This document shows positions 4,198 to 42,167 of a stretch of DNA of 64,000 bases, one piece after another. This stretch comes from a virus. Numbering within the stretch: the stretch's first letter is position 1; each line of letters begins with the position of its first letter. The stretch is taken from positions 23,751 to 87,750 of IMG/VR virus record IMGVR_UViG_3300032308_002578. The stretch is one strand, 5' to 3'. The notes beneath the pieces were generated by a model. It searched no databases, was not told where the DNA came from, and saw only the letters and a program-made list of their open reading frames with translations. The position numbers were made by a program, and so were the translations under genes.

Positions 4198-4206
4198 GGA
4201 AACGCC

Positions 4207-4726: not shown

Positions 4727-5194
4727 ATGAGTTTACAAGACTACGCACAACGTAAATACGACTACCTCGGGCTGCGAAATGTAAATCCAGCCAAAGAGGC
4801 CAAACTTGGCCTTGAGTTGTTTAACACTGCCAGTAACGGACAGATCTGTGTCGGCGTGCAAAAACTAGCCCAGCGTTGGCTGCTGGAGTTTATGACCGAA
4901 GTTGGGTCGATGCCCGGGCTGTCTGACCGCGGTTGCGACTTTATGACGTACGTCCGCCAAGGTCGCCTGCGCACACAAATCGAGGTGCAGGCGCTGTTTT
5001 CGGCTGCCGAACTTGACGTGCGTCGCAACCTGCAGCGAGAAGAATACGCCGGCATGCCTAACGACGAGCGCCTTAATTTCGCCGAGTTATTGTCGTCGTC
5101 GATTCTGCCGGGTTATTTACAGATTCGTGTTAAAATTAACAACGTTCTAGGCGACACGCGTGAGATCATCGTGCCGGTCTCGACACTTCCGTAG
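4727..5194 (+). CDS. baseplate wedge protein, gp25/gpW-like
   Basis: GVQKLAQRWLLEFMTEVGSMP...RGCDF pattern and size; directly before the baseplate-J-like gene. Confidence 0.7.
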   Translation: MSLQDYAQRKYDYLGLRNVNPAKEAKLGLELFNTASNGQICVGVQKLAQRWLLEFMTEVGSMPGLSDRGCDFMTYVRQGRLRTQIEVQALFSAAELDVRRNLQREEYAGMPNDERLNFAELLSSSILPGYLQIRVKINNVLGDTREIIVPVSTLP

Positions 5195-21829: not shown

Positions 21830-22606
21830 ATGAACAATTTCGACGAGCAATTACCCGACGTTGAGGCCATGCAGCCGTTTGACGGCCCCGTACTGGCTAA
21901 TACCGACGGCTGCACCAGTTGCCCACCCGGCCCGCGCGGCCCGCAAGGCCCGCAAGGTTTACGCGGCCCGATGGGGCCGTCTGGCCCACGCGGCAATGTT
22001 GGCCCAGCCGGCGCAACCGGCGTTAAAGGGCAGACGGGCGCTACCGGTGCGACTGGGCCGTCGGGGCCAAAGGGTCAAACGGGTGTTACAGGGGCCATAG
22101 GCACAAAAGGGCAGACTGGCGCTACAGGAGCCCCCGGACCCACAGGCCAAACTGGTGTCACGGGTATAACGGGTGTCACCGGCCCGCGTGGCGCAACTGG
22201 GGCGTCTGGTGTAACTGGCGTTCAGGGCGCTACCGGACCTACTGGTGTAACCGGCGTGACAGGACTTAGCGGCCCTACTGGCGCGACCGGCGCTACCGGG
22301 CCTACTGGTATAACCGGCGTGACAGGACTGCGCGGCCCGGCGGGACAAACTGGCCCGCGCGGAGCTACCGGTTTACTTGGCATGACGGGCCCTATCGGCC
22401 CGACCGGCATAACTGGTCCGGTTGGTGTTACTGGCGCCACTGGCGCGAGCGGTCCGAAGGGCGACACCGGCGCGGCAGGCCCGCAGGGCGCGACTGGACC
22501 GTGCGGCTCGCTAACATTGACTCCGGCATTTGTATCGCAATTGATTGCAGAAATCGGTACAAATACGGCGCTGCGTACTGCGATTCAAGACGCGGCTGCC
22601 AGCTAA
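21830..22606 (+). CDS. collagen-like protein
   Basis: ~190 aa of Gly-X-Y (GAT/GPT/GVT) flanked by CTSC and GPC. Confidence 0.88.
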
Positions 22607-29481: not shown

Positions 29482-32116
29482 GGGTCTGCCTATTTCTTTA
29501 GTCCGCCGACATAACCACATGGGTGCCCTGTCGGCTTTGGGGGTGGCGCCGGAAATTCCAGCATTTCCGGCTGTGGTCAGTTGTCCATTATGTCAGCAAA
29601 ATACGCTTCATCTATTCGACGATATCGTAACAGATGGTATTTGGCTGTACTGTAACTCCTGTCTCGCCCATGGAAATATCATAACGTTTGGAGCCCAGAT
29701 CTGGAATACAAGCCTCCCGGCCGTATTAACCCGGTTGACCGACCTTGGGTTTATAGCCCCGGGCGATGGCGATAAGTGCGCTGGCGAGTACGAGCGCGCC
29801 CACAGCAAGTTACAGGCCGCCAACGTTTTCTGGGACGCGGCTGCTTCTCAGGTCTGGAATCACGGTGACGACATCATTGCCGTCCGGCTCCGCGAAGTGG
29901 GCGTGCAGCACGAGATTGTCGCCTGTCAGGGGCTCGTCGGCGTAGCCCACACCGACCAGATTGCAGAACTGTATGCCGCTATGGGTCGGTCCAAACCGGC
30001 AGCGCTGCGCCCGCGGGCTCCCAGCATCGTGTTTCCGTACTACGACCTGCCCGGGCGATTTACAGGGTTTTTTCTGGTCCAGTACGACGAAGACTTTGCC
30101 GTGAAAACATCGTTCGTTTCACGGGAGTATAAAAAGCGCCGAGCGGACGCTGGTTACTGGCATCTTATTTCGGGATTATTGCCTGTGCCGCAATTATTGC
30201 GGAATAGAATGTTTATCGTTGACGACCCGTTTTGGGCACTTTCGGCCCAGTGTCGGCAACTAAAATACGGCCTGCCGTTCTTGCCGCTGGCCGCCAGTTA
30301 TAGCGGGCCGGAAGCCACCAGTTACGGCCAGAACTGGCAGTCCTTTTATCCGACCACCCGATTGTTTCAGGGCCGCGTCAGCACGCCTGAGCTTGTCAGC
30401 CAAGCCTGCACGGCCAAGGGCTACGTATGTATTGCCCCGTTGGACAAAAACGAGTACACGCAAAAAAAGCCTAAATACAATCTGGTCCGGCTGGCGGCGC
30501 TTCAGGCCGTCGCCGAGACGTGGCAGTCGAACCTCCTTAACACGCTTACCGCATCCAGCGAACTTACGGCGTTTGCGTTCGCTACCCGGCTCCGAATTTC
30601 GGTTGACCGCCTGCAGATGTTTTTCAACAAACACGCCGATAAGTTTTCGACCAGGTTTGCCGAAAAAGTGCTCGACACCGTGAAACTGGCACCGGCAGCA
30701 CCCACCAAGATCTTCCGGCGGTGGACGCTGATCGAGCGCGACAACAAATGGTGGACGCAAGTCGGCCAGCAAATCTGCAACGCGCGGCCCGTCATTACCA
30801 AGATTTTGCAAGACGATGATGGCGAAAAAATGTACGGCGGGCAGATCTACGTCGGCGAAGAGGTTTACGAATTTACCGACAGCGCCGAAAAGATTGAACG
30901 GATGGGGCTGCTCGCGTACGCGTTCGCGCACATGGCGCCGCTGGGCAAACTGATCACCTACGACCGGCACTGGAACCCCAAGAGCCATTTGCTGGCCATG
31001 CAGTTGCACCCACCAGCGCTCGAAGTCGTGTCGTCCAAGATCGGCTGGGACGAACAAACAAATACGTTTCGGCTTGGTGCGTACGGCATCACGAATAGTG
31101 GCGAAATCACCGAAACACCAACGTTGCCCAACAAGCGGTTAAAGACCAGTTTTCCGGAACCCGTGCTCGTGGCGCCGATCAGCATTCGGCAGTTTTTAAC
31201 GACTAGTCCGCAAAACGCGTTTGTCTGGAATGTGTTCTCGTCTGTCACTGCGGCATTAATTGCGCCCATTCTGCGCAAAGACCCGGAAGGCACGATCATT
31301 TGCGGCCCGGCGTTCAATACCGCGGCCAAGATCGGGGCTGCCTTGAACTGCGAGCACGTCCAGACATCGGCGCTACGCAAATACGACGCCGGCCGGTTTC
31401 TGGACGCCGCGACCCGGGAAAGATCATGGCCGGTCTTTGCCTCTAGCGCGTTTAACGACACCCTGTTCAATGCCGCCTTGAGCAAATGCCACAATCAGGC
31501 GGCCGTCGTACGCATGACCGAAGATGCTGCGGCGGTGGGTGTCGGCTACGGTTGGCAGAGCATTGTCGGTGTCGCGCCGCCGCCCGATACCGATTTCTCG
31601 GCGCTGCAGTATGTGCTGCCGGGTTATATTCAGCGGCTGCTCAAAATGCGGATGAGTTTCGCCGCGCAAAATAAACATTTAACGACAGGTGTGCTGCAGG
31701 ACATCCATAAATGGCTGCAGGAAACCTACGACGCCACGTTTCATTTACCCCAAGCCTTAAATCAGTTAACGACCCCCGCAGACGCGCACAAAGCCATTAT
31801 GCGGGAAATTAACAGAGCCGTTCAGGCCGATAAAATAGCGATTATTCCCAGACCACGCCGGCGCGATCAGGCCAGTAATTACGTACTGCGCCGCAAAGAC
31901 CACTGGTGGTTAAACCGCAGGGCTATCGACAACTATCTTGCCGCCTGTAAAAATATTCCACCGAACTGGCTGGCAATTATAGACTTAATGCTTGCTGCCG
32001 GTGTGTACGCCGGAGAGGAAACCATCCACAACCTGCCCGGCATACTCGTCGATACGCGGTGGTGCGATCAATTCTGGGAAGATTGCGATTTGTCATCTAG
32101 TCGTGAAATTGGGTGA
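29480..32116 (+). CDS. primase-like protein (Zn-binding domain, DnaG-like core, degenerate C-terminal domain)
   Basis: CPLC...CNSC zinc finger; SIVFPYYDLPGRFTGF resembles DnaG R..FPI.D..G.V.GF; SKIGW segment. Confidence 0.6.
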   Translation: MGLPISLVRRHNHMGALSALGVAPEIPAFPAVVSCPLCQQNTLHLFDDIVTDGIWLYCNSCLAHGNIITFGAQIWNTSLPAVLTRLTDLGFIAPGDGDKCAGEYERAHSKLQAANVFWDAAASQVWNHGDDIIAVRLREVGVQHEIVACQGLVGVAHTDQIAELYAAMGRSKPAALRPRAPSIVFPYYDLPGRFTGFFLVQYDEDFAVKTSFVSREYKKRRADAGYWHLISGLLPVPQLLRNRMFIVDDPFWALSAQCRQLKYGLPFLPLAASYSGPEATSYGQNWQSFYPTTRLFQGRVSTPELVSQACTAKGYVCIAPLDKNEYTQKKPKYNLVRLAALQAVAETWQSNLLNTLTASSELTAFAFATRLRISVDRLQMFFNKHADKFSTRFAEKVLDTVKLAPAAPTKIFRRWTLIERDNKWWTQVGQQICNARPVITKILQDDDGEKMYGGQIYVGEEVYEFTDSAEKIERMGLLAYAFAHMAPLGKLITYDRHWNPKSHLLAMQLHPPALEVVSSKIGWDEQTNTFRLGAYGITNSGEITETPTLPNKRLKTSFPEPVLVAPISIRQFLTTSPQNAFVWNVFSSVTAALIAPILRKDPEGTIICGPAFNTAAKIGAALNCEHVQTSALRKYDAGRFLDAATRERSWPVFASSAFNDTLFNAALSKCHNQAAVVRMTEDAAAVGVGYGWQSIVGVAPPPDTDFSALQYVLPGYIQRLLKMRMSFAAQNKHLTTGVLQDIHKWLQETYDATFHLPQALNQLTTPADAHKAIMREINRAVQADKIAIIPRPRRRDQASNYVLRRKDHWWLNRRAIDNYLAACKNIPPNWLAIIDLMLAAGVYAGEETIHNLPGILVDTRWCDQFWEDCDLSSSREIG

Positions 32117-32120
32117 ATAA

Positions 32121-32447
32121 ATGAAGCGTCGTCGAAACCGGTATAACTCAGACCGCCAGCCGTTCAATCAAAACGATGATCTCGACGACGATTTCATCGA
32201 AGAGGAATGGCAATTTGTCGACGACGAGGATGACGACGACGAGGACGACTTTGATTTCGACAGCGGCCATAAAACCGACTGGTACATCCCCGACGACAAC
32301 GACGAAGATGAAGACGACGAAGACTACGAGGACGAAGATTACGAAAACGAAGACGACGACGCTGACGACGCCGCGTTTAACTGGGACGATGACGACGATG
32401 AGGACGACGACCCAGCGTACGAGGACAATTTCAACATAGACGAATAG
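32121..32447 (+). CDS. extremely acidic small protein
   Basis: Asp/Glu runs over most of 108 aa after a basic N-terminus. Confidence 0.65.
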   Translation: MKRRRNRYNSDRQPFNQNDDLDDDFIEEEWQFVDDEDDDDEDDFDFDSGHKTDWYIPDDNDEDEDDEDYEDEDYENEDDDADDAAFNWDDDDDEDDDPAYEDNFNIDE

Positions 32448-32452
32448 GTGTC

Positions 32453-32932
32453 ATGCAAACATTTCTGCCGCTACCGAGATTTAAACATTCGGCGGCAGTT
32501 CTTGATAACAAACGACTCGGCAAACAACGGGTCGAATGCAAACAGATCTTGTTGTGTTTGGGTGTGCCAATTGGCGACCATACGCCAACGCCCGGCGGTT
32601 CGAAGTGGCGCAATCACCCAGCCGTGCGCATGTGGGCTGGCCATGAGATTGCCCTCGCGGCATACTCCATCGTGGTTTGCCGAGAATGGCGCCGGCGTGG
32701 CTTTCGCGACACGCTGCTCGCGCAGTTCATGGCCTGCTACGGCGTGCTGCGGCCGACAGTAACGCGCGTGGACTATCCGCCATGGTTTGGCGACTATGAC
32801 TTGCACGCCAGCCACCGCAGCAATTTGTTACGCAAGGACTATCGCTTTTATTCGCAGTTTGGATGGATGGAGCCCATCGACCTACCGTACATTTGGCCCG
32901 TGGAGAAAGAACATGCAGGCAGTGCTCATTGA
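32453..32932 (+). CDS. MSMEG_6728 family / pyrimidine-dimer DNA glycosylase-like protein
   Basis: MQTFLP...SA..LD.KRLGKQRVE..QIL...NHPAV.MW.G...HASHRSNLLRKD. Confidence 0.85.
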   Translation: MQTFLPLPRFKHSAAVLDNKRLGKQRVECKQILLCLGVPIGDHTPTPGGSKWRNHPAVRMWAGHEIALAAYSIVVCREWRRRGFRDTLLAQFMACYGVLRPTVTRVDYPPWFGDYDLHASHRSNLLRKDYRFYSQFGWMEPIDLPYIWPVEKEHAGSAH

Positions 32933-33260
32933 CCCGTACAAAGAAGAAGTCACAAACGTCGAGTACAACGGCGACTATAAGCAGATCTATGACCACATTA
33001 AGGCTGACTGTTTTACGCTGGTGCGGCTACACGACAACGACGACGTATTCGTGGACGATGAGGGTCTGCTCAAAGTCACCAAGGACACGAAATTTTTCAT
33101 GCTCAAGGACTACCCACAGCCGCTCGCGGGCTACGGGTTGATTCTCGGCAACGACGACGAGGGCGAATCGGTAGCCGTGCACCACACTGCCGAATTCTAC
33201 CGGCCCAAGGTACAATTCCTCGACGCGCAGATGGTGCGGGTGTTTGGTTACTTTAAGTAA
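32913..33260 (+). CDS. DUF3846-like protein
   Basis: AVLIDP...VFVDDEGLL...QPLAG.GLILG.DDEGE. Confidence 0.75.
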   Translation: MQAVLIDPYKEEVTNVEYNGDYKQIYDHIKADCFTLVRLHDNDDVFVDDEGLLKVTKDTKFFMLKDYPQPLAGYGLILGNDDEGESVAVHHTAEFYRPKVQFLDAQMVRVFGYFK

Positions 33261-33330
33261 TTGCTGATTTGTAATTTAGGTTGTAGTTACAACGTAAAAC
33301 CGCTAAACAGTTTAAATGGCCCGCAAAAAC

Positions 33331-33401
33331 GCCCCCATAGCATAATGATAATGCGGCTGATTTGTAATCAGCGGATGAAGGTTTGATTCCTTCTGGGGGC
33401 T
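33331..33401 (+). tRNA. tRNA-Thr(UGU)
   Basis: Cloverleaf: acceptor GCCCCCA/TGGGGGC, D stem GCAT/ATGC, anticodon arm GCTGA-TT TGT AA-TCAGC, T arm GAAGG-TTTGATT-CCTTC; no encoded CCA. Confidence 0.88.
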
Positions 33402-33441
33402 TTTAAACTGTTAAAATCATGGCACACACGGAGGTGTTGCC

Positions 33442-33885
33442 ATGAACGAGTTTACGATCAAGATCCGCGATATTAACAAGTTGAGCCTGATCGACGCGAC
33501 GGCTATCTACAGCCGGCTGTCGTGGCCTGACTCCGGTAGCACGAGTTCCATTCAGCGAGAATTGGAAAAACGCTACCTCACGCCAGAGCCCGGACCGCAC
33601 CCGGAGATGGCCATTGCGCTGATCTGGCACAACAGCCTGCTCGTCGCGTGGGTCGGGAGCCGGCTGTGGCCGGAACGATTCAAGGGCGAGACGATCATGG
33701 CCCAGACTATCGAGTGCTTCACAGATCCGGAACTGCGACAGCGGGGATATGCCGCGCTAGGCTTGCAAGCATTGCTTACGGCCGGATTTATTGATAGAGC
33801 TAAGCACGTCGCAGTCTACGCCAAGAACGTGGTCAAGATAGCCGAGCGCTGCGGCTGCAAAAGCGTGCTGCTGTGCGAGCCGTAA
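33442..33885 (+). CDS. GNAT-family N-acetyltransferase-like protein
   Basis: FTDPELRQRGYAALGL acetyl-CoA binding motif A; GGAGG RBS. Confidence 0.7.
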   Translation: MNEFTIKIRDINKLSLIDATAIYSRLSWPDSGSTSSIQRELEKRYLTPEPGPHPEMAIALIWHNSLLVAWVGSRLWPERFKGETIMAQTIECFTDPELRQRGYAALGLQALLTAGFIDRAKHVAVYAKNVVKIAERCGCKSVLLCEP

Positions 33886-33918
33886 ACAAACACACAGTTA
33901 ACTTACTGTATGCAGTTT

Positions 33919-33953
33919 AAACCCGTGGCATGATTGCCGCGGGTTTTTTATTT
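33919..33953 (+). terminator. Rho-independent terminator
   Basis: AAACCCGTGGCA-TGAT-TGCCGCGGGTTT followed by TTTATTT. Confidence 0.8.
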
Positions 33954-34009
33954 ACACAATTAGTTTGCGTATGTGAGTGTTTTTAACAATAACTAACAAA
34001 GGAAAAGAC

Positions 34010-34768
34010 ATGGCAACCATGCTCAAGGGTTCGAAGAAGACGCAAGCCAAGGCCAAGACGACAAAGACTGCCGCCAAAGAGCACCTCGGCCCCGATGACG
34101 ATAAGGGCGATTTGGCAATTGCTGATCGCGTGGGCGTGACGATCACAGCGCCCAACTTCAAGACCGTGGAGATCACAATCCGCGGCACGGCGCCGTACGT
34201 GCAGTTGGCGTTCGGCAAGAAGGCGCGCGAAATGATGCGCGAGAAGCAGGCTGCCGGCTCGACCGCCGCCAAGGGCAAGAAGCGCGAAGCCAAGGACTTC
34301 GATGCGAACTTCAAGGAAGCCCAGCACGTCTCAACCAAGGGCTGGTGTGGCATCCCAGCCAGCGCCCTTCGTAACGCGCTGGTTGACTCCTGCGTGGTCG
34401 TGGGCTATCACAAGACCAAGGCGAAGAAGGCTATTTTCGTCGAGGCCGACGGTTTCGACGCTGTCGAAGGCACGCCGCTCATCCGGTTGTACAATGACGG
34501 CAAGGGTAAGTTGGTAGACGCCAAGCCGAAGCACGTCGAGCACACCGTTCGCAACGCGACCGGCGTTGCCGATATCCGTGTTCGAGCGATGTTTGAGCAG
34601 TGGCAGGCCAAGGTCCGCGTGCGTTTTGATGCCGACATGTTCACGCCGGCCGACATTGCCAATCTCATGCTGCGCGCTGGTATGCAAGTCGGAATCGGCG
34701 AAGGCCGCGCAGATTCGCCCAATTCGTGCGGTATGGGCTGGGGTCATTTCGAGTGCGTGAAGGGTTAA
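34010..34768 (+). CDS. stand-alone RAMP/Cas7-like RNA-binding protein
   Basis: First strand VEITIRGTAPY; GIPASALRNAL (cf. RAMP IPGSSLKGA); C-terminal Gly-rich loop GIGEGR...GMGWGHF; AAGGA RBS. Confidence 0.75.
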   Translation: MATMLKGSKKTQAKAKTTKTAAKEHLGPDDDKGDLAIADRVGVTITAPNFKTVEITIRGTAPYVQLAFGKKAREMMREKQAAGSTAAKGKKREAKDFDANFKEAQHVSTKGWCGIPASALRNALVDSCVVVGYHKTKAKKAIFVEADGFDAVEGTPLIRLYNDGKGKLVDAKPKHVEHTVRNATGVADIRVRAMFEQWQAKVRVRFDADMFTPADIANLMLRAGMQVGIGEGRADSPNSCGMGWGHFECVKG

Positions 34769-34787
34769 TTTAACAAGGAGAAATGTT

Positions 34788-35267
34788 ATGGGGCGTAAAC
34801 GGCAAATGTCTTCCATCAAGGAAGAACTGACGCAGATTTTTCAAAAGCACAACGGCAATCTTCCGCCCGAAGCCGTTGTCGAATTTGCGCGCAATAAAAA
34901 CACCGCGTTGCACGCAGAGTTTGAGTGGGATGATACAGAAGCGGCGCATCAGTTTCGGCTAGTGCAGGCACGAAATATCATCCGACTGAACATAGACATC
35001 GTCGAAACGCCCAACGGCAATGTTCGCGTTCCCGTGTATGTGTCGCTTGTTTCAGACCGACGCAGCGGCCTCGGCTACCGGGCGCTCACAGACGTCATGA
35101 GCGACGCCGACATGCGTGCTCAGTTATTGCAACAGGCGATCGACGAGTTGCAGCGAGTTCGGCGCAAGTATGAATCGCTGCGCGAATTGGCGCCTGTGTT
35201 CTCGGCTTTAGATCGCGTCGCCCGCAACGCCAGCAGGCGGCCAACACGTCGCGCCGCTCGGGCTTAA
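34788..35267 (+). CDS. accessory protein between the RAMP gene and the repeat array
   Basis: AAGGAG RBS; L.PEAVVEFAR....LH.EFEWDD.EAA..FRL.QAR.II pattern, common among phage hypothetical proteins. Confidence 0.8.
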   Translation: MGRKRQMSSIKEELTQIFQKHNGNLPPEAVVEFARNKNTALHAEFEWDDTEAAHQFRLVQARNIIRLNIDIVETPNGNVRVPVYVSLVSDRRSGLGYRALTDVMSDADMRAQLLQQAIDELQRVRRKYESLRELAPVFSALDRVARNASRRPTRRAARA

Positions 35268-35272
35268 ATATT

Positions 35273-35880
35273 TAGACACGGCAGGCTTGGCAGGGCAACG
35301 CTAGGCTCGGCTACGCACGGCGCGGATCGGCAGGCGTGGAATGACGCTGCTCGGTTCGGCATGCCTAGGCATGGGTCGTTTTGGCTTGGCAGGTATGGCA
35401 CGGCGAGGCGGGGCGACGAGCGGTGAGGTGTGGATAGCCAAGACTTGGTTCGGATCGGCAGGCTGGGTAAGGCACGGCGTGGACGCGCGAGCAGCGACAT
35501 GGCGAGGCAGGCAGAGCAAGGCACGGCATGCTTTGGTGAGGATCGGTGTCGCTTAGACATGGCAGGCACGGACAGGCAAGGCGCGCTTTGGTAGGGTTTG
35601 GCTCGGCAAGGCAGGCTAGGCACGGCTCGTCTCGACGCGGCCAGATAGGCTCGGCAGGCGAGGTATGGCAAGGCCGGGAGCGCCCCGGCCGGGATAGACA
35701 TGGCAGGAATGGCATGGCTGGGTTCGGCACGGCGCGGTACGGATGGGCTTTAGACATGGCAGGCGTGGACAGGCTAGGCGGGGAATGCCGGCGCGCGCAG
35801 ACGCATAGACACGGCAGGCAGGGTTAGGCAGGGCGAGGAGAGGCCGGGAGTGGCTCGGCAAATCACGGCAGGCTCGGAAT
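35273..35880 (+). repeat. non-coding 5-nt-period GGH-NN array, 11 segments delimited by GGCA|GG (candidate guide-RNA array)
   Basis: Phase-breaking GGCA at 35280, 35329, 35388, 35457, 35506, 35561, 35610, 35653, 35702, 35758, 35813, 35867; TAGACAYGGCAGG at 35273, 35554, 35695, 35751, 35806. Confidence 0.9.
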
Positions 35881-35890
35881 TACATAAATT

Positions 35891-35929
35891 AAACAGGGGG
35901 CGGTTATTAACGTAGCCGCCCCCTGTTTT
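35891..35929 (+). terminator. Rho-independent terminator closing the RAMP-array cassette
   Basis: AAACAGGGGGCGGTTA-loop-TAGCCGCCCCCTGTTTT. Confidence 0.85.
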
Positions 35930-35940
35930 ACAATCACAGT

Positions 35941-36186
35941 ATGAAAAGATACCACGCTGAAAAGCACATCATCGACAGTCGCGTAAAAAAGTATAAGCAG
36001 ATCGCAGGCTGGCTTGACCCGGCGGATACGCGGTTCCTGCCCGATGCGGGCCGTTTCCGCAAATCTATCCGCTGCTCAGGCTGCGGCCGGGCGCGGTGCC
36101 AATTGTGCCACCCGGAGAAGTTTCCGCGGCGTATTCCAACAATTAAAGAACAACAGGCGCAGTATGACTGGCGCGATTACGAATAA
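35941..36186 (+). CDS. small putative Zn-binding protein
   Basis: CSGCGRARCQLCHPEK. Confidence 0.65.
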   Translation: MKRYHAEKHIIDSRVKKYKQIAGWLDPADTRFLPDAGRFRKSIRCSGCGRARCQLCHPEKFPRRIPTIKEQQAQYDWRDYE

Positions 36187-36224
36187 ACCAGTCACGTTTT
36201 AACAACTAACTTTTTGGAGAATTC

Positions 36225-36536
36225 ATGCCTAACTTCGTAAACAACATCGTCCAAGCCTCGGGCCGGCTCGCCGATGCCGTAATGTCTGAGATGGCGTACG
36301 AGGACAACCGGCACAACGTCAAGATGCAGGTGATCGAGCGACTTATGGCCGGCGAGAACAAGTTGACCGGCAAGCCCCATTCGTTCAGTTCGGCCGAGAC
36401 CGCGGCGGCCTCTGACCCGGCCTACACCGATTATCTTGAGCAGTTGCGCAACGCCACCCGCGAGCGTATTCTCGCCAAGGGCGTCTATGACGCAGCCGTG
36501 GCTGCCGCCCGGCTGCAGGAGGTGGTCAGTGACTGA
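36225..36536 (+). CDS. hypothetical protein
   Basis: GGAG RBS; 103 aa. Confidence 0.75.
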   Translation: MPNFVNNIVQASGRLADAVMSEMAYEDNRHNVKMQVIERLMAGENKLTGKPHSFSSAETAAASDPAYTDYLEQLRNATRERILAKGVYDAAVAAARLQEVVSD

Positions 36537-37005
36537 CGAACCGGAGTTTGACGGCCGTATCGCTGCCACGCTTGAAATGCTGCGTGATGAGGCGATTTCA
36601 CTATTTGACCGTTTTGTTGCGCACCGTAGCGGCATGCCGCCGGCCGGCGCTGTAAACGCGACGCTAGAAGACAAACAGAAATTTCTTACGCTGGCCGAAA
36701 CTGAAAATATCGTTAAAGAACATGCTGTGATCACTGAAGACGCGTACGCCATCGGCGGTGACACGCCTGAAGAGGCTGCGCGGCAGATTCGAATCGTCAT
36801 GGCCGCGCTCATGCAACGCATTCTGTCTAACGTGCTGAATGCTGGTGCGGGACTTGAGTTGTTTGACGTTTCATTTGACGAGAAACGAAATGATTTTTGT
36901 TTTCAAGTCAGTGAAAAAGGGAAAAAGTTAAATGACCGTATCCAAAAGCAAATCGAAAACGGCGAAGAAGTCGATTACGATCTCGACGCGGATGAAGACA
37001 ATTAA
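36529..37005 (+). CDS. hypothetical protein
   Basis: GGAGG before the GTG at 36529. Confidence 0.65.
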   Translation: MTDEPEFDGRIAATLEMLRDEAISLFDRFVAHRSGMPPAGAVNATLEDKQKFLTLAETENIVKEHAVITEDAYAIGGDTPEEAARQIRIVMAALMQRILSNVLNAGAGLELFDVSFDEKRNDFCFQVSEKGKKLNDRIQKQIENGEEVDYDLDADEDN

Positions 37006-37309
37006 GTCTTATATTGCCGACTTCGAAAAATGCCGCACAAAGCATAAAAAGTACGGCGCCAGTGACACCGAGCCTGACACTGTATTTCAAATTCTTATTG
37101 ACCGCGCCAGCCGCGGTACGCAGCCAGAGGTTCCCCGCACACCCAGCGGCTGGGAACTGCTGCACGGTTCTGATCCCGGCTGCGGCAGAGCGGCAATGGC
37201 GCTACATCATGCGGCATGTAACGTTGTGGACGCGATTGAAGCCTGTCCTGTGCGGGAAATAAACGACCTGCGCGCTCTGGTGCGCGACTACTGCTGGAGG
37301 CTCGGATGA
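36992..37309 (+). CDS. hypothetical protein
   Basis: ATG at 36992; overlaps both neighbours. Confidence 0.6.
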   Translation: MKTIKSYIADFEKCRTKHKKYGASDTEPDTVFQILIDRASRGTQPEVPRTPSGWELLHGSDPGCGRAAMALHHAACNVVDAIEACPVREINDLRALVRDYCWRLG

Positions 37310-37533
37310 TGGCGTTTCATGGAAAAGCCGGTGACCGCGTGCAGATGGTTTTCATGCCTAACGACCCCGAGCCTATTCCGGTTGGCACGACCGGCACCGT
37401 CGTTGGCGTTAACGATATGCCGTGGGGCCAAGATCGCATGACGCAGGTCATGGTCAAATGGGATAACGGCCGCAACCTGTCGTGCATCTGCCCGCCAGAC
37501 CATCTGGAAATCATTCCAGCCACGGCTGATTAG
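37306..37533 (+). CDS. DUF4314-like protein
   Basis: GDRV....M..DP.PIPVGTTGTV..V.D......V.WDNGR.L. Confidence 0.8.
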   Translation: MMAFHGKAGDRVQMVFMPNDPEPIPVGTTGTVVGVNDMPWGQDRMTQVMVKWDNGRNLSCICPPDHLEIIPATAD

Positions 37534-40500
37534 TATTGGAAGTAGCCGCTGCCAATAGCGTCGTCGGCCCAGTCTTCGCCCGGTGTCTGGGCGGCAACGG
37601 CCCGTTCCGTTACGCGGCCAATGCCGGCTAACTGCGCGAAGTTGGGCCACGCGTCGTTAATGTGCCACGCGGCGGCACAGCCAATATTGACAGCCTGCGC
37701 GAAGTCATCGCTGAGCAGCGTATTTCGCGTGATTGTATAAATGTCGCCGCCCATACGAGACTCGGCTTTGTTTTCCACCAGCGCCAAGAAGTCGGCGATA
37801 AGTCCGGGCGAGTCTTGCGACGCCCAATCGTATTGGAAGAACCTGATCTGTTTTAACTTAATCGCCTGACAGGTGTAGAGCAACGACCGGGTCTTATCAA
37901 GACTGTAATGGGCCCGGTGATTAATCGGCGTCGGCGGCTTGTAAATCATCAAGTCCTGCGCGGCCGACCGGACAAGCCGCAGAGCCAGCACCCGGTCTAA
38001 ATTAAAGCCAGCCTGCACCATGACTGTTTCGCGGACCGTGCCGGCACCGGTGTAATCGTGCGCGACAAAATCGCAATTAAACGTGTTCGACCACTTCATG
38101 CACTCAATGGCTTCGGCCAGATGGTCGCCGCCGATCAGCAGGCGTTTCGACCAAATAACATCGATAGTGCCGTCCGGCCGAAAACCAAGTACGGCTACGA
38201 CAGTAAACGAGATACCCTCTTCGCCACCGCCGCCCCAGTCGATGGCCAGAATCCGATGTTTGTACTCCTGCAGGTGTTGGAAGCATTTTGGGTTAGGTTC
38301 TTTCTTGTTCTCCCAGTCGAGTAAACACGCCGCGCGCAGTTCTGTCTCGCTGATCAATTTCTGCCCGGCGTCAACAGACTCGCCCAAAACTTCGTTGTAG
38401 AACTGCGCCTGCGTCATGTTGCCGTAGCCTTCGCGCTTGAGCAGCAGCGTGTTCCATTTCTCGGGATCTGAGAAATGCAACGGCAGAATTAACTGCGGCA
38501 CGTGATATCCGGCGAACTGCCAGCGGCGATCAGGGTGCCTGTGCACCCAACGTCCGTGCCGCGGGCTGATAGGCTTGCGACATTTCGCGCAAATTGTGCC
38601 CGGATTCTTTTCACTAATGTGAATATTAAACGGGCCAATAATAGCGTCGAGGTCATGGTCGATAGATGGAATGTTCCAATACTTACAAGAGCGGCACGGG
38701 ATAAACCATTCAGCCTGCGATGAACGTTTGTATAACCCCTCTAACGGGTTATCTACGGATTTTGGCGTTCCTGTGAAATGGCTAATGGCATAGCGTGAAT
38801 AACTCATCGTCTCTTGAATGATTGGAATATGATCCGGGTCCATGTCTTGAATTTCGTCAAGCGCGATACGGTCAGCAGACACACCGCGGACACGATCTGC
38901 GTCGAGCAGCGCGAACGAGAACAGCATTAACGACTTGTTCTTAAAGCTGCGCTGCAATACAGAATTCTCAGTATCGCTCCCCGCCCACTGCGACTTGATG
39001 GGCGACTGATCAATGAATGGGCGCACGTAGTTGTTCGAGAATCTGCGGATCTGCTCGTACAACGGCGTAACGTACAGAGTCTTGAAAAACGGAATCGAGT
39101 TCGCCACCACGATGCCGTGCGCCGCGAGCGAGGTTGAATTGTGATTTACAATACCGTCGACGACGTAATTGTGCTCGCCGCTGACTTCGATGTCCCAGCA
39201 CGGCAGCACGCCCAGCGGCTCGATCTTTTCGATTTTGTCCCAAATAATATCCGGACTTGCGAGCCGCTCTAGTTCTGAAAGTTTTGGATGTTCGGGACAA
39301 TGTTCTCGAAAATGCTCAATGTACTTTTTGAGTTTGGCGCGGGTCAACGCGTGCTTGGGTTTTAGACGCAGACCGCCGCTCAAAAGAGATTTGCCGTTTT
39401 GCGCCCAGCGAATACTCTCGGCAATCTCGCTGATTAATTCGCGAACTTCCAGCGGCACGGTGTCGCGGTTGTTGTTTTCAACCGCTTCAGGCAGCACTAC
39501 AGGCGGTTTTCCCGGCACTTGGAATTCATCAAGAAAACGACGCCAGCCATCTCTTGTTTCGACGTGCACGATGTACGCATCGTTGCAGTGTACGCGTGCG
39601 CCGTTTTTATCGCGGTAACCAGTTGGTCGGACTTTGATTGTGGCCGGAATGCCGAACTTTAACAGCATCGCTTTGATATCAAACGCCAGATCTCGCGATA
39701 TAGTGCAATATGTGATCGCTGGCGCCCGCTGCTTGCCGCTAGCGGGGCGGATCATACCATCCGTTGCCCATAAGCGGCTCAAAAACAGCGCGGCGTCACC
39801 GCGCGACAGATCAAAAACCCAATCGGGCAGGCTTTTTTCTAACGCGTTTTTACCGTACAGCCTGTCTTCTTCCAGCCAGCCGCGAATCACACCGCCACGA
39901 CTCTTTGAGATGTCGATACGTACGGCATTCGTTTTGACTTTGCTGACAAACGTAGCGGGGCTACCCTGCACACGCGTGATTACCCCGTTCACCTCGTTTA
40001 TCACTTCAGCGCTGTCTGTTGTAATATTAATTGCGTTAGTCACGCATCCGTCACCGATAAGATACGCCGTGATGATGATGCGATCACGATCCACGCGTCG
40101 ATCGCCGAACGTGCCGCCTTTACGCACTGCGCAGACGCGGTCGCCAACCCGTAAGTTCGCACCGGTTGTCCAGCCGCTGACTTTGAGTAATGGATGCGTG
40201 TCGGCCAGTTCGATCACGGCACCCGTTCGCGTCGTAACTCGGTAGACGTGCTTTCCTGAGTGCCGCGCGGTGTCGAGAACGCGTACAACTTTCGTGCGGT
40301 ACTGGTTGTCGATACCGAGAACAAAGTCGCCAATTTTAAGCTCATCGCCCCGAATTCGCCGACCATTTGCTAGCAACACTTTGTGTGTTGAACAAATGAC
40401 CAGACTTTTTGATAATTGACGCCCTGTTTTCCACACCTGATTCTTGGGTGTTAAAACGCGGAAAAGGGGCGAAAAAGGGTAGTGATTATTTAGACTGTAC

Positions 40501-40727
40501 GGGCGTCCATTAAGATTCAATACAAGCGGCAAAATTGGTTCCAACGACGGGAACGCATACTTACTGGCTAACTCACGCAGTATCGCGGTTCGTTCTTTAA
40601 CGGACTCTGGATCTGACGTGTCGACAGACAGTAGTTCATTGACCAGTCCTTTGATTCCCGTGTTAGGAATTTCAAGGGCTGGTGATTCGTGCGGGCTACC
40701 ATCCCGCATTATTTCTTCTGGTGCCAT
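37530..40727 (-). CDS. terL: terminase large subunit (GpA-like) with intein
   Basis: Walker A GRQLSK/ST split by the intein; Walker B RIALDEIQD; motif III GTP; CxxC...CxxC; nuclease LAIDWGGG and DDFAQA; start uncertain (40727 chosen). Confidence 0.85.
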   Translation of the reverse strand: MAPEEIMRDGSPHESPALEIPNTGIKGLVNELLSVDTSDPESVKERTAILRELASKYAFPSLEPILPLVLNLNGRPYSLNNHYPFSPLFRVLTPKNQVWKTGRQLSKSLVICSTHKVLLANGRRIRGDELKIGDFVLGIDNQYRTKVVRVLDTARHSGKHVYRVTTRTGAVIELADTHPLLKVSGWTTGANLRVGDRVCAVRKGGTFGDRRVDRDRIIITAYLIGDGCVTNAINITTDSAEVINEVNGVITRVQGSPATFVSKVKTNAVRIDISKSRGGVIRGWLEEDRLYGKNALEKSLPDWVFDLSRGDAALFLSRLWATDGMIRPASGKQRAPAITYCTISRDLAFDIKAMLLKFGIPATIKVRPTGYRDKNGARVHCNDAYIVHVETRDGWRRFLDEFQVPGKPPVVLPEAVENNNRDTVPLEVRELISEIAESIRWAQNGKSLLSGGLRLKPKHALTRAKLKKYIEHFREHCPEHPKLSELERLASPDIIWDKIEKIEPLGVLPCWDIEVSGEHNYVVDGIVNHNSTSLAAHGIVVANSIPFFKTLYVTPLYEQIRRFSNNYVRPFIDQSPIKSQWAGSDTENSVLQRSFKNKSLMLFSFALLDADRVRGVSADRIALDEIQDMDPDHIPIIQETMSYSRYAISHFTGTPKSVDNPLEGLYKRSSQAEWFIPCRSCKYWNIPSIDHDLDAIIGPFNIHISEKNPGTICAKCRKPISPRHGRWVHRHPDRRWQFAGYHVPQLILPLHFSDPEKWNTLLLKREGYGNMTQAQFYNEVLGESVDAGQKLISETELRAACLLDWENKKEPNPKCFQHLQEYKHRILAIDWGGGGEEGISFTVVAVLGFRPDGTIDVIWSKRLLIGGDHLAEAIECMKWSNTFNCDFVAHDYTGAGTVRETVMVQAGFNLDRVLALRLVRSAAQDLMIYKPPTPINHRAHYSLDKTRSLLYTCQAIKLKQIRFFQYDWASQDSPGLIADFLALVENKAESRMGGDIYTITRNTLLSDDFAQAVNIGCAAAWHINDAWPNFAQLAGIGRVTERAVAAQTPGEDWADDAIGSGYFQY
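39138..40406 (-). mobile_element. intein (423 aa) with LAGLIDADG homing endonuclease
   Basis: Starts SLV, block B DTHPLL, LAGLIDADG-like AYLIGDG and SRLWATDG, ends HNYVVDGIVNHN followed by Ser. Confidence 0.88.
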
Positions 40728-40919
40728 ATGGGTAAACGTGGTTTCAATCGTTCGTATCGACCCGGTCCTGATGACAACGAGTTGCAATGGCTCGAAGAGG
40801 GCATAAACATGCTCGTCCGGTTTGCCTTTTTCGGTATCGCCGGCATTCTACGCGGTACGTGCAAAATTGTCATCGGAATCATTTTGTTGCTGTACGGGGC
40901 CTGTACTCGACAGCGCTAA
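40728..40919 (+). CDS. small membrane protein
   Basis: 63 aa with hydrophobic C-terminal half. Confidence 0.5.
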   Translation: MGKRGFNRSYRPGPDDNELQWLEEGINMLVRFAFFGIAGILRGTCKIVIGIILLLYGACTRQR

Positions 40920-40991
40920 CGAACGATTACAGCGCGGGCGCGGGTATACTGAAGGGTGCCCCGCCCCGCGTTGTTTACACAGGAGCCCACT

Positions 40992-41219
40992 ATGGCGCAA
41001 GTCAGTCGAAGTGCAAGACTTTACCAAGAACGGCGGCAGCCTTCTTTTCCGAACGCCCCACGCGGTCCGGGATTGCAGGTTAATTTGTCAGACAACGCTG
41101 TGCACAATCTGACGCTCAGCCCGCCGTACCCAAATCCCAATTACTGTGCAAATGGGAATCCGGTTACCGATACAGGCCGAACGCAAGAATGGCCGTATGG
41201 CGACAAGTATGCTACATGA
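40992..41219 (+). CDS. hypothetical protein
   Basis: AGGAG RBS, ATG at 40992. Confidence 0.65.
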   Translation: MAQVSRSARLYQERRQPSFPNAPRGPGLQVNLSDNAVHNLTLSPPYPNPNYCANGNPVTDTGRTQEWPYGDKYAT

Positions 41220-41407
41220 ACACTCTTAACAACGCATTTGTTCTTTATTTCGGTTTATTTCTGCTTGCGGCGCTTGTCTGTGCTCCCGTCATGGGCAGCG
41301 GCGGAATTATCCCGGTGCTCGTGGCCGGTTATTTCATGCTGGTGTCTGTGAACGCCATTGGGCGTGGCGAAAGCCGCGGCAAGCACAACCGCAACAAGCG
41401 CAGGTGA
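41216..41407 (+). CDS. small two-TM membrane protein
   Basis: Two hydrophobic stretches and a basic tail. Confidence 0.6.
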   Translation: MNTLNNAFVLYFGLFLLAALVCAPVMGSGGIIPVLVAGYFMLVSVNAIGRGESRGKHNRNKRR

Positions 41408-41410
41408 CAT

Positions 41411-41800
41411 ATGATTAGCGCACTAGATTTCGTGGCCGTAGTTTTTGCAGCCGGAGCCGTCATCGAAGTCTGGCACAAGGGCTCAATCTTTGACACAGCG
41501 CGGGCGTACACCCAAGCCGTGCAGGACATCACGCCGCCAGAGTCGCTAAAAGGGCGGCTGCTTGAATTGCTGAACTGCCCTTTTTGCAAGAGCTACCACG
41601 CGCCGATTTACCTGTTCTTCGCACTGTTGGCAGGAGACTGGTTCGGTGGTACGATTGCCGCGGTCGTTCGGGTGTTCGTCTACGGACTGGCTGCAACGCG
41701 GCTGGGCAATATCGTAGACGGTCTTCTGCCCGACCGCATGAGATATATTCCAGACCCATTTGGAGGATCGCATGGACACGGAACAGACGCCGGCAAATGA
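41411..41800 (+). CDS. DUF1360-like membrane protein
   Basis: IF...R.......LLELLNCPFC.S.H plus TM segments. Confidence 0.65.
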   Translation: MISALDFVAVVFAAGAVIEVWHKGSIFDTARAYTQAVQDITPPESLKGRLLELLNCPFCKSYHAPIYLFFALLAGDWFGGTIAAVVRVFVYGLAATRLGNIVDGLLPDRMRYIPDPFGGSHGHGTDAGK

Positions 41801-42167
41801 AGAAGAGCCGCGCCTGCCCTTTGACGCCCAATTTGTTCAATTCGTTGAGGCGTTCTCTAAAAACATTCTGCAAAGCATTCCAGAACTCCACGGCATCGCG
41901 ATTGTGCCGCTGTGGAACAATCAGCCGGAAAATATGCCGCCCGGGCTTTTGCAGTTGCGTAATCCGCAACCGCCGTACCTGCCAAGCCTGACGCTGCTGC
42001 TCAAACGCTTGGCTGCCTTTAATGTCGAAGTCCAAAAAGACTTGTTTGGGCAGGTCAACGTGGTCGAGCAGTATTTAGGCGAACTCGACCGCCGCGTTAA
42101 AAGCCGCGTTGAGGAACTCAATCAATTAAACAAACACCCGGAACAAAATGAGCAATCTGCCCAGTGA
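41772..42167 (+). CDS. hypothetical protein with C-terminal coiled coil
   Basis: GGAGG RBS, ATG at 41772. Confidence 0.7.
   Translation: MDTEQTPANEEEPRLPFDAQFVQFVEAFSKNILQSIPELHGIAIVPLWNNQPENMPPGLLQLRNPQPPYLPSLTLLLKRLAAFNVEVQKDLFGQVNVVEQYLGELDRRVKSRVEELNQLNKHPEQNEQSAQ

What the first reader, a model, noticed from the sequence alone, without database searches (positions are those of the whole stretch)
35273..35880. Array grammar: constant GGH scaffold, hypervariable dinucleotides, 11 guide-sized segments
Seen: the sequence parses into pentamers (GGCTT GGCAG GGCAA CGCTA GGCTC GGCTA CGCAC GGCGC GGATC) interrupted by a 4-nt GGCA that resets the phase 12 times. The 11 segments are 49, 59, 69, 49, 55, 49, 43, 49, 56, 55 and 54 nt; five boundaries extend to TAGACAYGGCAGG. 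Positions 1-3 are biased to GGC/GGT/GGA while positions 4-5 differ between segments, unlike a decaying microsatellite. Example NN strings: seg1 TT AG AA TA TC TA AC GC TC; seg3 AT AC GA GG GA GC GA GT TA AA TT TC TC; seg6 AC CA AA GC TT AG TT TC AA; seg9 AT AT TG TC AC GC AC TG TT; seg11 AG TA AG GA GA CG GT TC AA. Inference: each segment is one processed guide of ~16-26 informative nt, and GGCA|GG is the processing or handle site. If targets are read as NN-gap-NN with a 1-nt gap, the 3-nt period could skip codon wobble positions.
Basis: partly seen in the sequence, partly recalled or inferred. Interest (0 to 1): 0.92.

Follow-up and report, generated by a model that had tools for sequence, protein, structure and literature searches.

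The report
Phage VIPR staggered guide-RNA array

Summary
Window 35273-35880 has a strong 5-nt period. Twelve 4-nt GGCA units reset the phase and delimit 11 segments of 43-69 nt. The motif TAGACAYGGCAGG occurs 5 times against 0.05 expected.

The tract is the third part of a module closed by a strong terminator hairpin (a weaker terminator-like site lies upstream):
- a 263-aa gene (33977-34768)
- a 159-aa gene (34788-35267)
- the array

A profile of the 263-aa protein matches the solved SUSP1 Vipr protein (PDB 36pp; E 2e-10; hhalign 97.9%, 165 columns). This makes the locus a VIPR system (bioRxiv 10.64898/2026.04.26.720920). Its vrRNAs are GGY/NN pentamers read with a 1-nt skip. The layout here is the "staggered array" form of that paper's fig. 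S18 legend.

Of 86 related loci, 79 carry such an array beside the genes. Among relatives' guides, only the 1-nt-skip reading gave perfect matches. One guide matches a conserved motif of rival vipr genes.

No target was found for this window's own 11 guides, and no RNA data exist. The accessory protein is not Vap1-like.

This scan has noted VIPR before on other DNA (64 notes). Verdict: a new member of a known kind.

The parts
33919..33946 (+). Terminator-like hairpin that closes the upstream operon, just before the module
   Evidence: Consensus scan, 12-bp stem followed by a T run. This is a pattern match only.
33977..34768 (+). vipr gene, encoding the RAMP-family protein that reads GGY/NN repeats. 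The longest ORF gives 263 aa from GTG 33977; the likely start is ATG 34010, giving 252 aa.
   Evidence: Profile A2 against PDB 36pp_D 'SUSP1 Vipr protein', E 2.3e-10. hhalign A2 against SUSP1 Vipr (KT454805 28474-29061): probability 97.9%, E 5.3e-13, 165 aligned columns. Public collections hold the 252-aa form. No Pfam, NCBIfam or PADLOC match; phrog_4652.
34788..35267 (+). Accessory gene of 159 aa ('FEWDD' family, phrog_15946), a candidate vap gene of unknown class
   Evidence: Lies next to a Vipr homologue in 82 of 86 loci fetched through it. Invariant L41, H42, F45, W47, A52, R57, Q60, A61, R62, Y97. 14,287 cluster representatives at E<=0.001. No similarity to SUSP1 Vap1 (hhalign probability 0.3%). 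No Pfam, NCBIfam, PADLOC or PDB match.
35273..35283 (+). First boundary element TAGACAC-GGCA, 6 nt after the stop codon of the accessory gene
35284..35870 (+). Staggered vrRNA array of 11 abutting guides, each a run of GGH-NN pentamers ending in a 4-nt GGCA unit. Guides: W1 35284-35332, W2 35333-35391, W3 35392-35460, W4 35461-35509, W5 35510-35564, W6 35565-35613, W7 35614-35656, W8 35657-35705, W9 35706-35761, W10 35762-35816, W11 35817-35870. Each has 9-14 units.
   Evidence: Viterbi parse. The same grammar occurs in 99 of 101 non-redundant arrays of related loci. The RNA folds no better than shuffles, z -0.12. No Rfam family matches.
35871..35880 (+). Two further pentamers after the last boundary, a truncated twelfth guide. 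In relative L008 a full guide stands here.
35891..35927 (+). Intrinsic-terminator hairpin that closes the module
   Evidence: 17-bp stem, -30.8 kcal/mol, z -6.0, 0 of 200 shuffles as stable, followed by a U run. L008 has an analogous hairpin after its array.

Best explanation
The tract is the guide-RNA (vrRNA) array of a phage VIPR system in the 'staggered' layout.

Proposed mechanism:
1. The module vipr, accessory gene and array is transcribed on the + strand as far as the hairpin at 35891-35927. This step is inferred.
2. Vipr protomers bind one per pentamer. They sequester each GGY/GGH triplet and present the two variable bases. This is shown for SUSP1 Vipr in the preprints and inferred here from homology.
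3. Each of the 11 segments gives one filament of 9-14 protomers.
4. The filament recognises double-stranded DNA that matches its NN string with one skipped base between dinucleotides, usually the codon wobble base, and silences transcription there.
5. The 4-nt GGCA unit shifts the register by -1. My inference is that a filament growing in one register cannot continue into the next guide, so the shift itself marks where one guide ends and the next begins.

The targets of these 11 guides are unknown. By analogy they are rival phages, satellites or prophages.
For: Protein: the Vipr homology spans the full length. The equivalents of SUSP1 R138 and R179 are invariant in the family (R203 and R244 here), and D177 corresponds to E242 (residue roles).

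Grammar: 11 segments of 9-14 GGH-NN units fall within the published 9-16 repeats per vrRNA.

Layout: the legend of fig. [quoted passage not shown] That is what GGCA|GG amounts to.

Linkage: 79 of 86 loci have an array within 200 nt of the two genes, lying before, between or after them. 102 of 103 arrays are G-rich on the gene strand.

Conserved punctuation: 595 of 1151 phase events in 101 arrays are the GGC|A shift, with A at 0.88 and C at 0.96. 321 of 496 segments have lengths of 44, 49, 54, 59, 64 or 69 nt.

Code: only skip 1 gives perfect matches. The guide at L089:3431 spells EDMVRVGM of the vipr genes of 12 other loci (8 perfect, 4 with one mismatch). It matches its own vipr at only 13 of 16 bases, because that gene uses other codons and residues there.

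Self-avoidance: the best matches of W1-W11 in the phage's own 87.75-kb record equal those of shuffles.

Turnover: against L008, guides W4, W5 and W8 are identical in NN. W1 keeps its NN while its scaffold bases change. W6, W9 and W10 are replaced. A contig of run X5 replaces 35587-35751 with 85 other letters.
Against: No RNA evidence exists, so expression, ends and processing are untested. No listed sequencing run holding the stretch is on record as RNA.

No target was found for any of the window's 11 guides. Only 88 kb plus 545 kb could be searched, and matches there equalled shuffles.

The skip-rule support rests on three independent guides. Only one (L089) is clearly beyond chance: about 0.01 perfect hits are expected for 8-unit guides. 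The L068 hit (8 units, 1 mismatch) is within chance, with about 0.6 expected. The L049 hit has about 0.06 expected.

Two of the five GGY-contact residues of SUSP1 Vipr are not kept here: H17 corresponds to L77 and W178 to G243.

Position 3 is A in 17% of units, although the SUSP1 pocket is said to exclude purines.

The accessory protein has no detectable similarity to Vap1. I could not compare it with vap2-6, because supplements were closed and figures are not held.

Among 10 variant sites in the array seen in other samples, 6 lie in NN against 4 expected. That is no real enrichment.
Confidence: 0.9

Rival explanations
1. The machinery is the same VIPR system, but the guides are aimed at host anti-phage defence genes (an anti-defence role) and not at rival phages or satellites.
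For: This is a lead only. Earlier unchecked notes of this scan report staggered-array guides in other large phages that decode to conserved motifs of restriction and CBASS genes. NN composition across 101 arrays is codon-like: position 4 is A 0.34 and G 0.34, and position 5 is G-poor at 0.15. This fits sense-strand matches to conserved coding motifs of any kind.
Against: I tested nothing on this for this window, and no target of W1-W11 is known. The only targets I found in the clade are rival vipr genes and one ATPase gene of another phage. That fits the published phage-against-phage role.
Confidence: 0.2
2. The array is a decoy or a relic. Its guides would no longer direct silencing, and would either merely soak up a rival's Vipr protein or be decaying.
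For: The third preprint describes satellite-borne and solo vrRNAs that redirect a rival's VIPR (abstract and passages). Several units here are degenerate (CGC, GAC, GCC, GTT), and the last guide is truncated to two units.
Against: Intact vipr and accessory genes stand beside the array. Three guides are identical in NN, and others nearly so, in a relative whose proteins are about 80% identical, which argues for purifying selection. In W1 against L008's guide the scaffold bases changed while NN stayed the same.
Confidence: 0.05
3. The array acts as double-stranded DNA: a row of binding sites (iterons, centromere or origin) for the 159-aa protein.
For: The module lies near replication or recombination genes in some relatives. 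VIPR accessory proteins of some types are predicted DNA binders.
Against: 102 of 103 arrays share the strand of the genes although their position in the module varies. That points to a transcribed element. A 5-bp spacing with frequent -1 shifts does not fit a helical repeat. The partner protein is an RNA-binding RAMP. vrRNAs of this grammar were sequenced and co-purified with Vipr in the preprint.
Confidence: 0.02
4. The tract is protein-coding or a decaying microsatellite. Public annotations of cultured actinophages do call a CDS over the equivalent arrays.
For: ORFs of 71 and 93 aa exist on the + strand. Donkeykong gp48 and UmaThurman gp40 are annotated as hypothetical proteins over their arrays.
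Against: The period is 5, not 3, and the register shifts every 43-69 nt. The ORF translations find only 2 and 5 of 83 loci. The grammar, including the GGCA punctuation and the 5n+4 lengths, is conserved in 101 arrays from phages of unrelated hosts. A decaying microsatellite would not keep it.
Confidence: 0.01

Closest known systems
VIPR systems with staggered vrRNA arrays (bioRxiv 10.64898/2026.04.26.720920, Results text and legend of fig. S18; I read the text and legend, the figure is not held)
   Same: Both have a Vipr RAMP gene, one accessory gene and GGY/NN pentamer guides that abut one another with a 1-nt overlap and no tail or spacer. Guide length is 9-14 units here, within the published 9-16.
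   Different: I could not see the published example or its type number, so identity of clade is unknown. Position 3 here is C, T or A ('GGH', A 17%). Five boundaries carry an extra TAGACAY element, which the nearest relative L008 also has. The host is unknown and the phage is large: the record is 87.75 kb at 43% estimated completeness.
Type II VIPR of Escherichia phage SUSP1 (KT454805; Vipr structure PDB 36pp; bioRxiv 10.64898/2026.04.26.720920 and .720927)
   Same: The Vipr proteins are homologous over their whole length. The gene order is the same: vipr, accessory gene, then a downstream array. The pentamer guides have the same register.
   Different: SUSP1 guides are GGT-rich, separate, roughly 100-nt RNAs, each with a conserved 3' tail or pseudoknot. 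Here the guides are GGC-rich, abut one another and have no tail. The accessory protein is unrelated to Vap1 by sequence. The SUSP1 contacts H17 and W178 are L77 and G243 here, and a GMGW insertion follows the G-loop.
Class 1 CRISPR-Cas backbone (Cas7 filament on crRNA)
   Same: A RAMP protein polymerises along a guide RNA, and a thumb breaks guide-target pairing periodically. This is as stated in the preprints.
   Different: The period is 5 nt with only 2 of 5 bases pairing, against 6 nt with 5 of 6 pairing. There is no repeat-spacer array. The system is phage-encoded. No adaptation genes are known for VIPR.

Membership tests
VIPR system (general) | A Vipr protein (minimal RAMP with RRM core, thumb and G-loop) is encoded beside the repeats | tested here: met
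   Profile against PDB 36pp_D, E 2.3e-10. The profile finds the SUSP1 vipr ORF at E 8.9e-13. hhalign probability 97.9%, 165 columns.
VIPR system (general) | Tandem YNNGG (GGY/NN) pentamers. The paper calls candidates from 4 units and reports 9-16 per vrRNA. | tested here: met
   11 segments of 9-14 units; position 1 G 0.90, position 2 G 0.82, position 3 C+T 0.82.
VIPR system (general) | NN positions vary between repeats while GGY stays constant | tested here: met
   Emission matrix of the parse. All 11 NN strings are different.
VIPR system (general) | An accessory (vap) gene lies in the locus | tested here: inconclusive
   A conserved 159-aa partner gene is present; 82 of 86 loci have both genes. 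It is not Vap1-like, and I could not compare it with vap2-6.
VIPR system (general) | Guides match targets under the 1-nt-skip (NNx) rule | tested here: inconclusive
   The window's guides found no match above shuffles in 88 kb plus 545 kb. Large collections were not searched. In the clade, skip 1 gave 8 perfect and 7 one-mismatch hits, other skips gave 0, and shuffles gave 0 for skip 1. These hits come from three guides, and only one is clearly beyond chance.
VIPR system (general) | No self-targeting at 80% NN match or more | tested here: met
   Best self matches equal those of shuffles. The one guide above 80% NN match is the 6-unit W7 at 11 of 12, which is also the shuffle maximum.
VIPR system (general) | vrRNAs are expressed and bound by Vipr | not testable with these tools
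   No RNA holder is listed among 17 runs.
VIPR, staggered-array form | Successive vrRNAs overlap by 1 nt, and the end of one is the start of the next | tested here: met
   Twelve GGC|A -1 register shifts with no spacer or tail between guides. The same holds in 99 of 101 related arrays, with 595 shifts. Processed RNA ends were not testable.
VIPR type II (SUSP1-like) | Vap1 accessory protein | tested here: not met
   hhalign of profile A1 against SUSP1 Vap1: probability 0.3%.
VIPR type II (SUSP1-like) | An invariable structured 3' tail (pseudoknot) after each repeat tract | tested here: not met
   Guides abut directly. The array folds no better than shuffles, z -0.12. SUSP1 shows tails.
VIPR type II (SUSP1-like) | GGY-contact residues H17, R138, D177, W178 and R179 | tested here: inconclusive
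   The R138 and R179 equivalents are invariant (R203, R244). D177 corresponds to E242. H17 corresponds to L77 and W178 to G243 (residue roles).
CRISPR-Cas | Direct repeats of about 20-50 nt separated by unique spacers | tested here: not met
   TRF finds only two weak rows, of period 10 and 14. The only recurring element is 13 nt.
CRISPR-Cas | Adaptation genes (cas1, cas2) or further cas genes nearby | not tested
   I did not scan the window for cas genes. The eight ORFs at 33442-37533 have no such Pfam match.

The most novel reading that the evidence does not exclude
In staggered VIPR arrays the guide boundary may need no nuclease site, ribozyme or tail. The -1 register shift at GGCA|GG would itself stop a Vipr filament and seed the next, so guide length would be written purely in the phase of the repeat. 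The very widespread 159-aa 'FEWDD' protein (14,287 cluster representatives) would then be a new class of VIPR accessory factor that works with such tail-less filaments. A related possibility is a relaxed third-base pocket in this Vipr clade, which has lost the SUSP1-type His and Trp contacts. That clade accepts A at position 3 (14% of 4262 units, against 4-7% in clades that keep Trp).
Probability: 0.3. Interest if true: 0.6.

Novelty: new member of a known kind. Interest (0 to 1): 0.33.

Why it matters
VIPR is a very recent discovery: three preprints from April to October 2026, all from one laboratory in the library I could search. This locus adds an uncultured large freshwater-type phage carrying an 11-guide array in the staggered layout. 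That is the one layout the first preprint describes without stating sRNA-seq confirmation.

The comparative data gathered here give sequence rules that the held text does not spell out:
- GGCA as the near-universal boundary
- segment lengths of 5n+4, with n mostly 8-13
- constant co-orientation with the genes
- codon-like NN composition
- a guide aimed at rivals' vipr while the phage's own gene is recoded

They also show that equivalent arrays in cultured Mycobacterium and Gordonia phages are annotated as protein-coding genes. Those phages would be convenient for experiments. None of this changes the kind of system, so the value is confirmatory and practical, not conceptual.

Tried and rejected
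Searches and tools that gave nothing:
- Rfam (evalue mode, 34000-37000): only a sub-threshold Termite-leu match on the terminator.
- megablast of 30000-42000 against phages: no match.
- Pfam, NCBIfam, PADLOC and PHROGs gave no function for either protein.
- The PDB profile search for the 159-aa protein gave nothing.
- ESM Atlas returned only unnamed viral clusters and no structure.
- The metagenome scan with the 159-aa protein returned 13 loci, none closer than 56% identity, so no near relatives for guide-by-guide comparison.
- No RNA holder was listed among the 17 sequencing runs. The four DNA runs laid are contigs only.

Target search for W1-W11: no match above shuffles in the phage's own record or in 545 kb of fetched loci. 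The other weak period-5 signals in the window are coding sequence.

Ideas I held before the PDB hit and then dropped:
- a TRAP-like RNA scaffold wrapped round a ring protein
- tandem two-tier G-quadruplexes (this would not explain the conserved third base)
- a CsrA-type sponge
- iterons, a centromere or a pac site
- an R-loop origin

I did not fold or dock anything, and I did not use complex prediction.

They may already list this clade, its accessory gene and its targets.
Full report
**What is there**

Window 35273-35880 lies between a 159-aa ORF (34788-35267, +) and a strong hairpin. It has no long ORF on the + strand. The base counts are G 259, C 144, A 116 and T 89. Identity autocorrelation peaks at lags 5, 10 and 15 (0.47, 0.46, 0.44, against about 0.2-0.25 elsewhere). 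A sliding scan shows this is the only such tract in the 64-kb window. The next-best signals are ordinary coding sequence.

A five-phase Viterbi parse trained on the tract gives the unit G(0.90) G(0.82) C/A/T(0.68/0.17/0.14) N N. It places twelve -1 register shifts, each at a 4-nt unit GGCA followed by GG.

TAGACAYGGCAGG occurs five times, all on the + strand, against 0.05 expected. It occurs nowhere else in the 87.75-kb virus record that holds the window. IMG/VR classes that record as a linear fragment, 43% complete by CheckV.

**Surroundings**

The array is followed by a 17-bp hairpin at 35891-35927 (-30.8 kcal/mol, z -6.0) and a U run. A terminator-like hairpin at 33919-33946 precedes the 263-aa ORF 33977-34768. 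Together they bracket a three-part module: the 263-aa gene, the 159-aa gene and the array.

The array RNA folds no better than shuffles (z -0.12). It matches no Rfam family.

**Relatives**

The 159-aa protein has no Pfam, NCBIfam, PADLOC or PDB match. It does have many homologues: 87 in the word-indexed search and 14,287 cluster representatives at E<=0.001 in the exhaustive search.

Through it I fetched 83 IMG/VR loci. I also fetched three cultured-phage records: Mycobacterium phage Donkeykong, Cyanophage Cy-LDV1 and Gordonia phage UmaThurman.

Counts over these 86 loci:
- 82 also encode a homologue of the 263-aa protein beside it.
- 79 have a period-5 array within 200 nt of one of the two genes.
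- 2 have only more distant arrays.
- 5 have none, and one of those ends 40 nt after the gene.

Arrays lie before, between or after the two genes. 102 of 103 are G-rich on the gene strand.

In Donkeykong and UmaThurman the array is annotated as a hypothetical protein, gp48 and gp40 respectively.

**Identification**

A profile of 25 homologues of the 263-aa protein (alignment A2) hits one solved structure, 36pp chain D, 'SUSP1 Vipr protein', at E 2.3e-10. That name led to three preprints.
- 10.64898/2026.04.26.720920: I read the whole Results and Discussion, Methods sections 18, 20, 26 and 27, and the legends of figs S17-S22 as passages.
- 10.64898/2026.04.26.720927: I read Results part 1 and the Discussion.
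- 10.64898/2026.10.15.759431: I read the abstract, outline and passages.

[quoted passage not shown] A small RAMP protein, Vipr, binds one protomer per repeat along a vrRNA made of 9-16 YNNGG (GGY/NN) pentamers. It hides each GGY and pairs the NN bases with DNA, skipping every third target base.

I fetched SUSP1 under accession KT454805, taken from PMC5241400. Profile A2 finds its vipr ORF at E 8.9e-13. hhalign gives 97.9% probability over 165 columns, nearly the whole protein.

The gene order in SUSP1 is vipr, vap1, then an array, as here. Its guides, however, are GGT-rich, separate, and each followed by a tail.

The first preprint also names 'staggered arrays with overlapping vrRNAs'. Its fig. 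[quoted passage not shown] GGCA|GG is exactly a 1-nt overlap of two pentamers. The same sentence says that 'the latter two' layouts, ribozyme arrays and single vrRNAs, were confirmed by sRNA-seq. So I found no statement that staggered arrays were confirmed.

**Grammar across the clade**

I parsed 101 non-redundant arrays, 37,666 nt in all and including this one. 595 of 1151 phase events are the -1 shift at GGC|A. The logo there is G G C A | G G C, with A at 0.88 and C at 0.96. 99 of 101 arrays have at least one such boundary; the median is 5 and the maximum 22.

Of 496 boundary-to-boundary segments, 321 have lengths of 44, 49, 54, 59, 64 or 69 nt (counts 56, 66, 80, 54, 32 and 33). That is 5n+4 with n from 8 to 13.

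The unit before a boundary has NN = AA, AC or AT in 294 of 590 cases, against 30% overall. This is only a mild preference.

NN composition is codon-like. Position 4 is A 0.34, G 0.34 and C 0.14. Position 5 is A 0.36 and G 0.15. This fits guides that mostly match the sense strand, with NN on codon positions 1 and 2. That reading is my inference.

**The code, tested independently**

From the parsed arrays I took 324 guides with only regular units (8-14 units), 271 of them unique. I compared them, under skips of 0-3 bases, with 629 kb made of the phage's own record plus all fetched loci, arrays masked.
- Skip 1: 8 perfect and 7 one-mismatch matches.
- Skips 0, 2 and 3: none at one mismatch or fewer.
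- Unit-order shuffles: none for skips 0, 1 and 3, and 2 one-mismatch hits for skip 2.

The 15 hits come from three guides.
- L089:3431 (8 units) gave 12 hits, including all 8 perfect ones.
- L068:2705 (8 units, 1 mismatch) gave 2 hits, in two near-identical loci.
- L049:2714 (9 units, 1 mismatch) gave 1 hit.

By my arithmetic the chance expectation is about 0.01 for a perfect 8-unit hit, about 0.6 for an 8-unit hit with up to one mismatch, and about 0.06 for the 9-unit hit. Only the first guide is clearly significant.

All three lie on the sense strand in codon phase 0, so the skipped base is the wobble base. The L089 guide spells EDMVRVGM, a conserved Vipr motif, in 12 other loci. Its own vipr gene reads EDMVRIGL with an AGG arginine codon and matches only 13 of 16 bases. 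This parallels the published vipr-targeting guides that spare their own locus.

**This window's guides**

The 11 NN strings have 6-13 clean units. They find nothing above shuffles in the phage's own record or in 545 kb of fetched loci. Absence of self-targets agrees with the preprint. Searching the large collections would have required typing derived patterns, which I left out (see Tried and rejected). The targets are therefore unknown.

**Turnover**

The nearest relative is L008, on a 198-kb contig, with proteins 80-83% identical. It has 12 bounded guides plus a final one before its terminator.
- W4, W5 and W8 have identical NN strings there.
- W1's counterpart keeps all eight shared NN while four scaffold bases differ.
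- W3 shares its first 10 of 13 NN.
- W11 shares its first 8 of 10 NN.
- W6, W9 and W10 have no counterpart.

Contigs from other samples show 10 variant sites in the array: two each at unit positions 2 and 3, and three each at positions 4 and 5. One contig has 85 other letters in place of 35587-35751. Depths are low, so single differences may be errors.

**Differences from the studied system**

By the alignments, the SUSP1 residues map onto the window's Vipr as follows (roles).

| SUSP1 residue | Here | Note |
|---|---|---|
| R138 | R203 | invariant in the family |
| R179 | R244 | invariant in the family |
| D177 | E242 | conservative change |
| H17 | L77 | contact not kept |
| W178 | G243 | contact not kept; a GMGW insertion follows |

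Arrays were grouped by G-loop type. A at unit position 3 is 14% in the E-G-R clade (60 arrays, 4262 units), 7% with E-W-R (16 arrays, 993 units) and 4% with D-W-R (5 arrays, 199 units). The arrays are related to one another, so this is an observation and not a test.

The 159-aa protein shows no similarity to Vap1 (probability 0.3%). Whether it is one of vap2-6 I could not tell.

**Verdict**

The element is a VIPR vrRNA array in the staggered layout, a new member of a kind published in 2026.

This scan has noted VIPR loci before on other DNA: 64 notes in at least 57 genomes. One concerns a 198-kb relative. I reached the identification through the PDB hit.

Noticed in passing
L091 2980-3366 (Mycobacterium phage Donkeykong gp48) and L093 3162-3485 (Gordonia phage UmaThurman gp40): In these cultured phages the vrRNA array is annotated as a hypothetical protein. 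The neighbouring genes (Donkeykong gp49 and gp50; UmaThurman gp39 and gp41) are the Vipr and 159-aa homologues. 27 Mycobacterium records and 5 Gordonia records carry the 159-aa homologue.
   Followed up: partly
L089 guide at 3431; targets in L025, L026, L045, L055, L064, L067, L070, L072, L074, L083, L086, L087: One 8-unit guide spells the conserved Vipr motif EDMVRVGM in 12 other loci (8 perfect, 4 with one mismatch), in codon phase. Its own vipr gene is recoded there and matches 13 of 16 bases.
   Followed up: yes
L092 (Cyanophage Cy-LDV1) 4156-4375 and 4926-5155: This cyanophage has two staggered arrays, one between the vipr and accessory genes and one after the accessory gene. They lie in the early operon next to an excisionase and bet/exo genes.
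   Followed up: partly
window 19980-20930 and 22150-22500: Long collagen-like Gly-X-Y coding repeats (GC 0.70 at 20-21 kb), probably in a fibre gene. They give weak period signals unrelated to the array.
   Followed up: no
window 35941-36186: An 81-aa ORF with two Cys pairs, resembling a zinc ribbon, lies right after the module's terminator. It is found in only 1 of 83 related loci (L012), so it is not part of the module.
   Followed up: partly
window 34788-35267: The 159-aa 'FEWDD' family is very large: 14,287 cluster representatives at E<=0.001 and 12,447 at 1e-10. The top 150 listed representatives are 140-219 aa long. It has no Pfam model.
   Followed up: partly
window 35587-35751: A contig of coded run X5 (freshwater metagenome) replaces this part of the array (guides W6 in part to W9) with 85 other letters. 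This suggests cassette-like guide replacement between strains.
   Followed up: no
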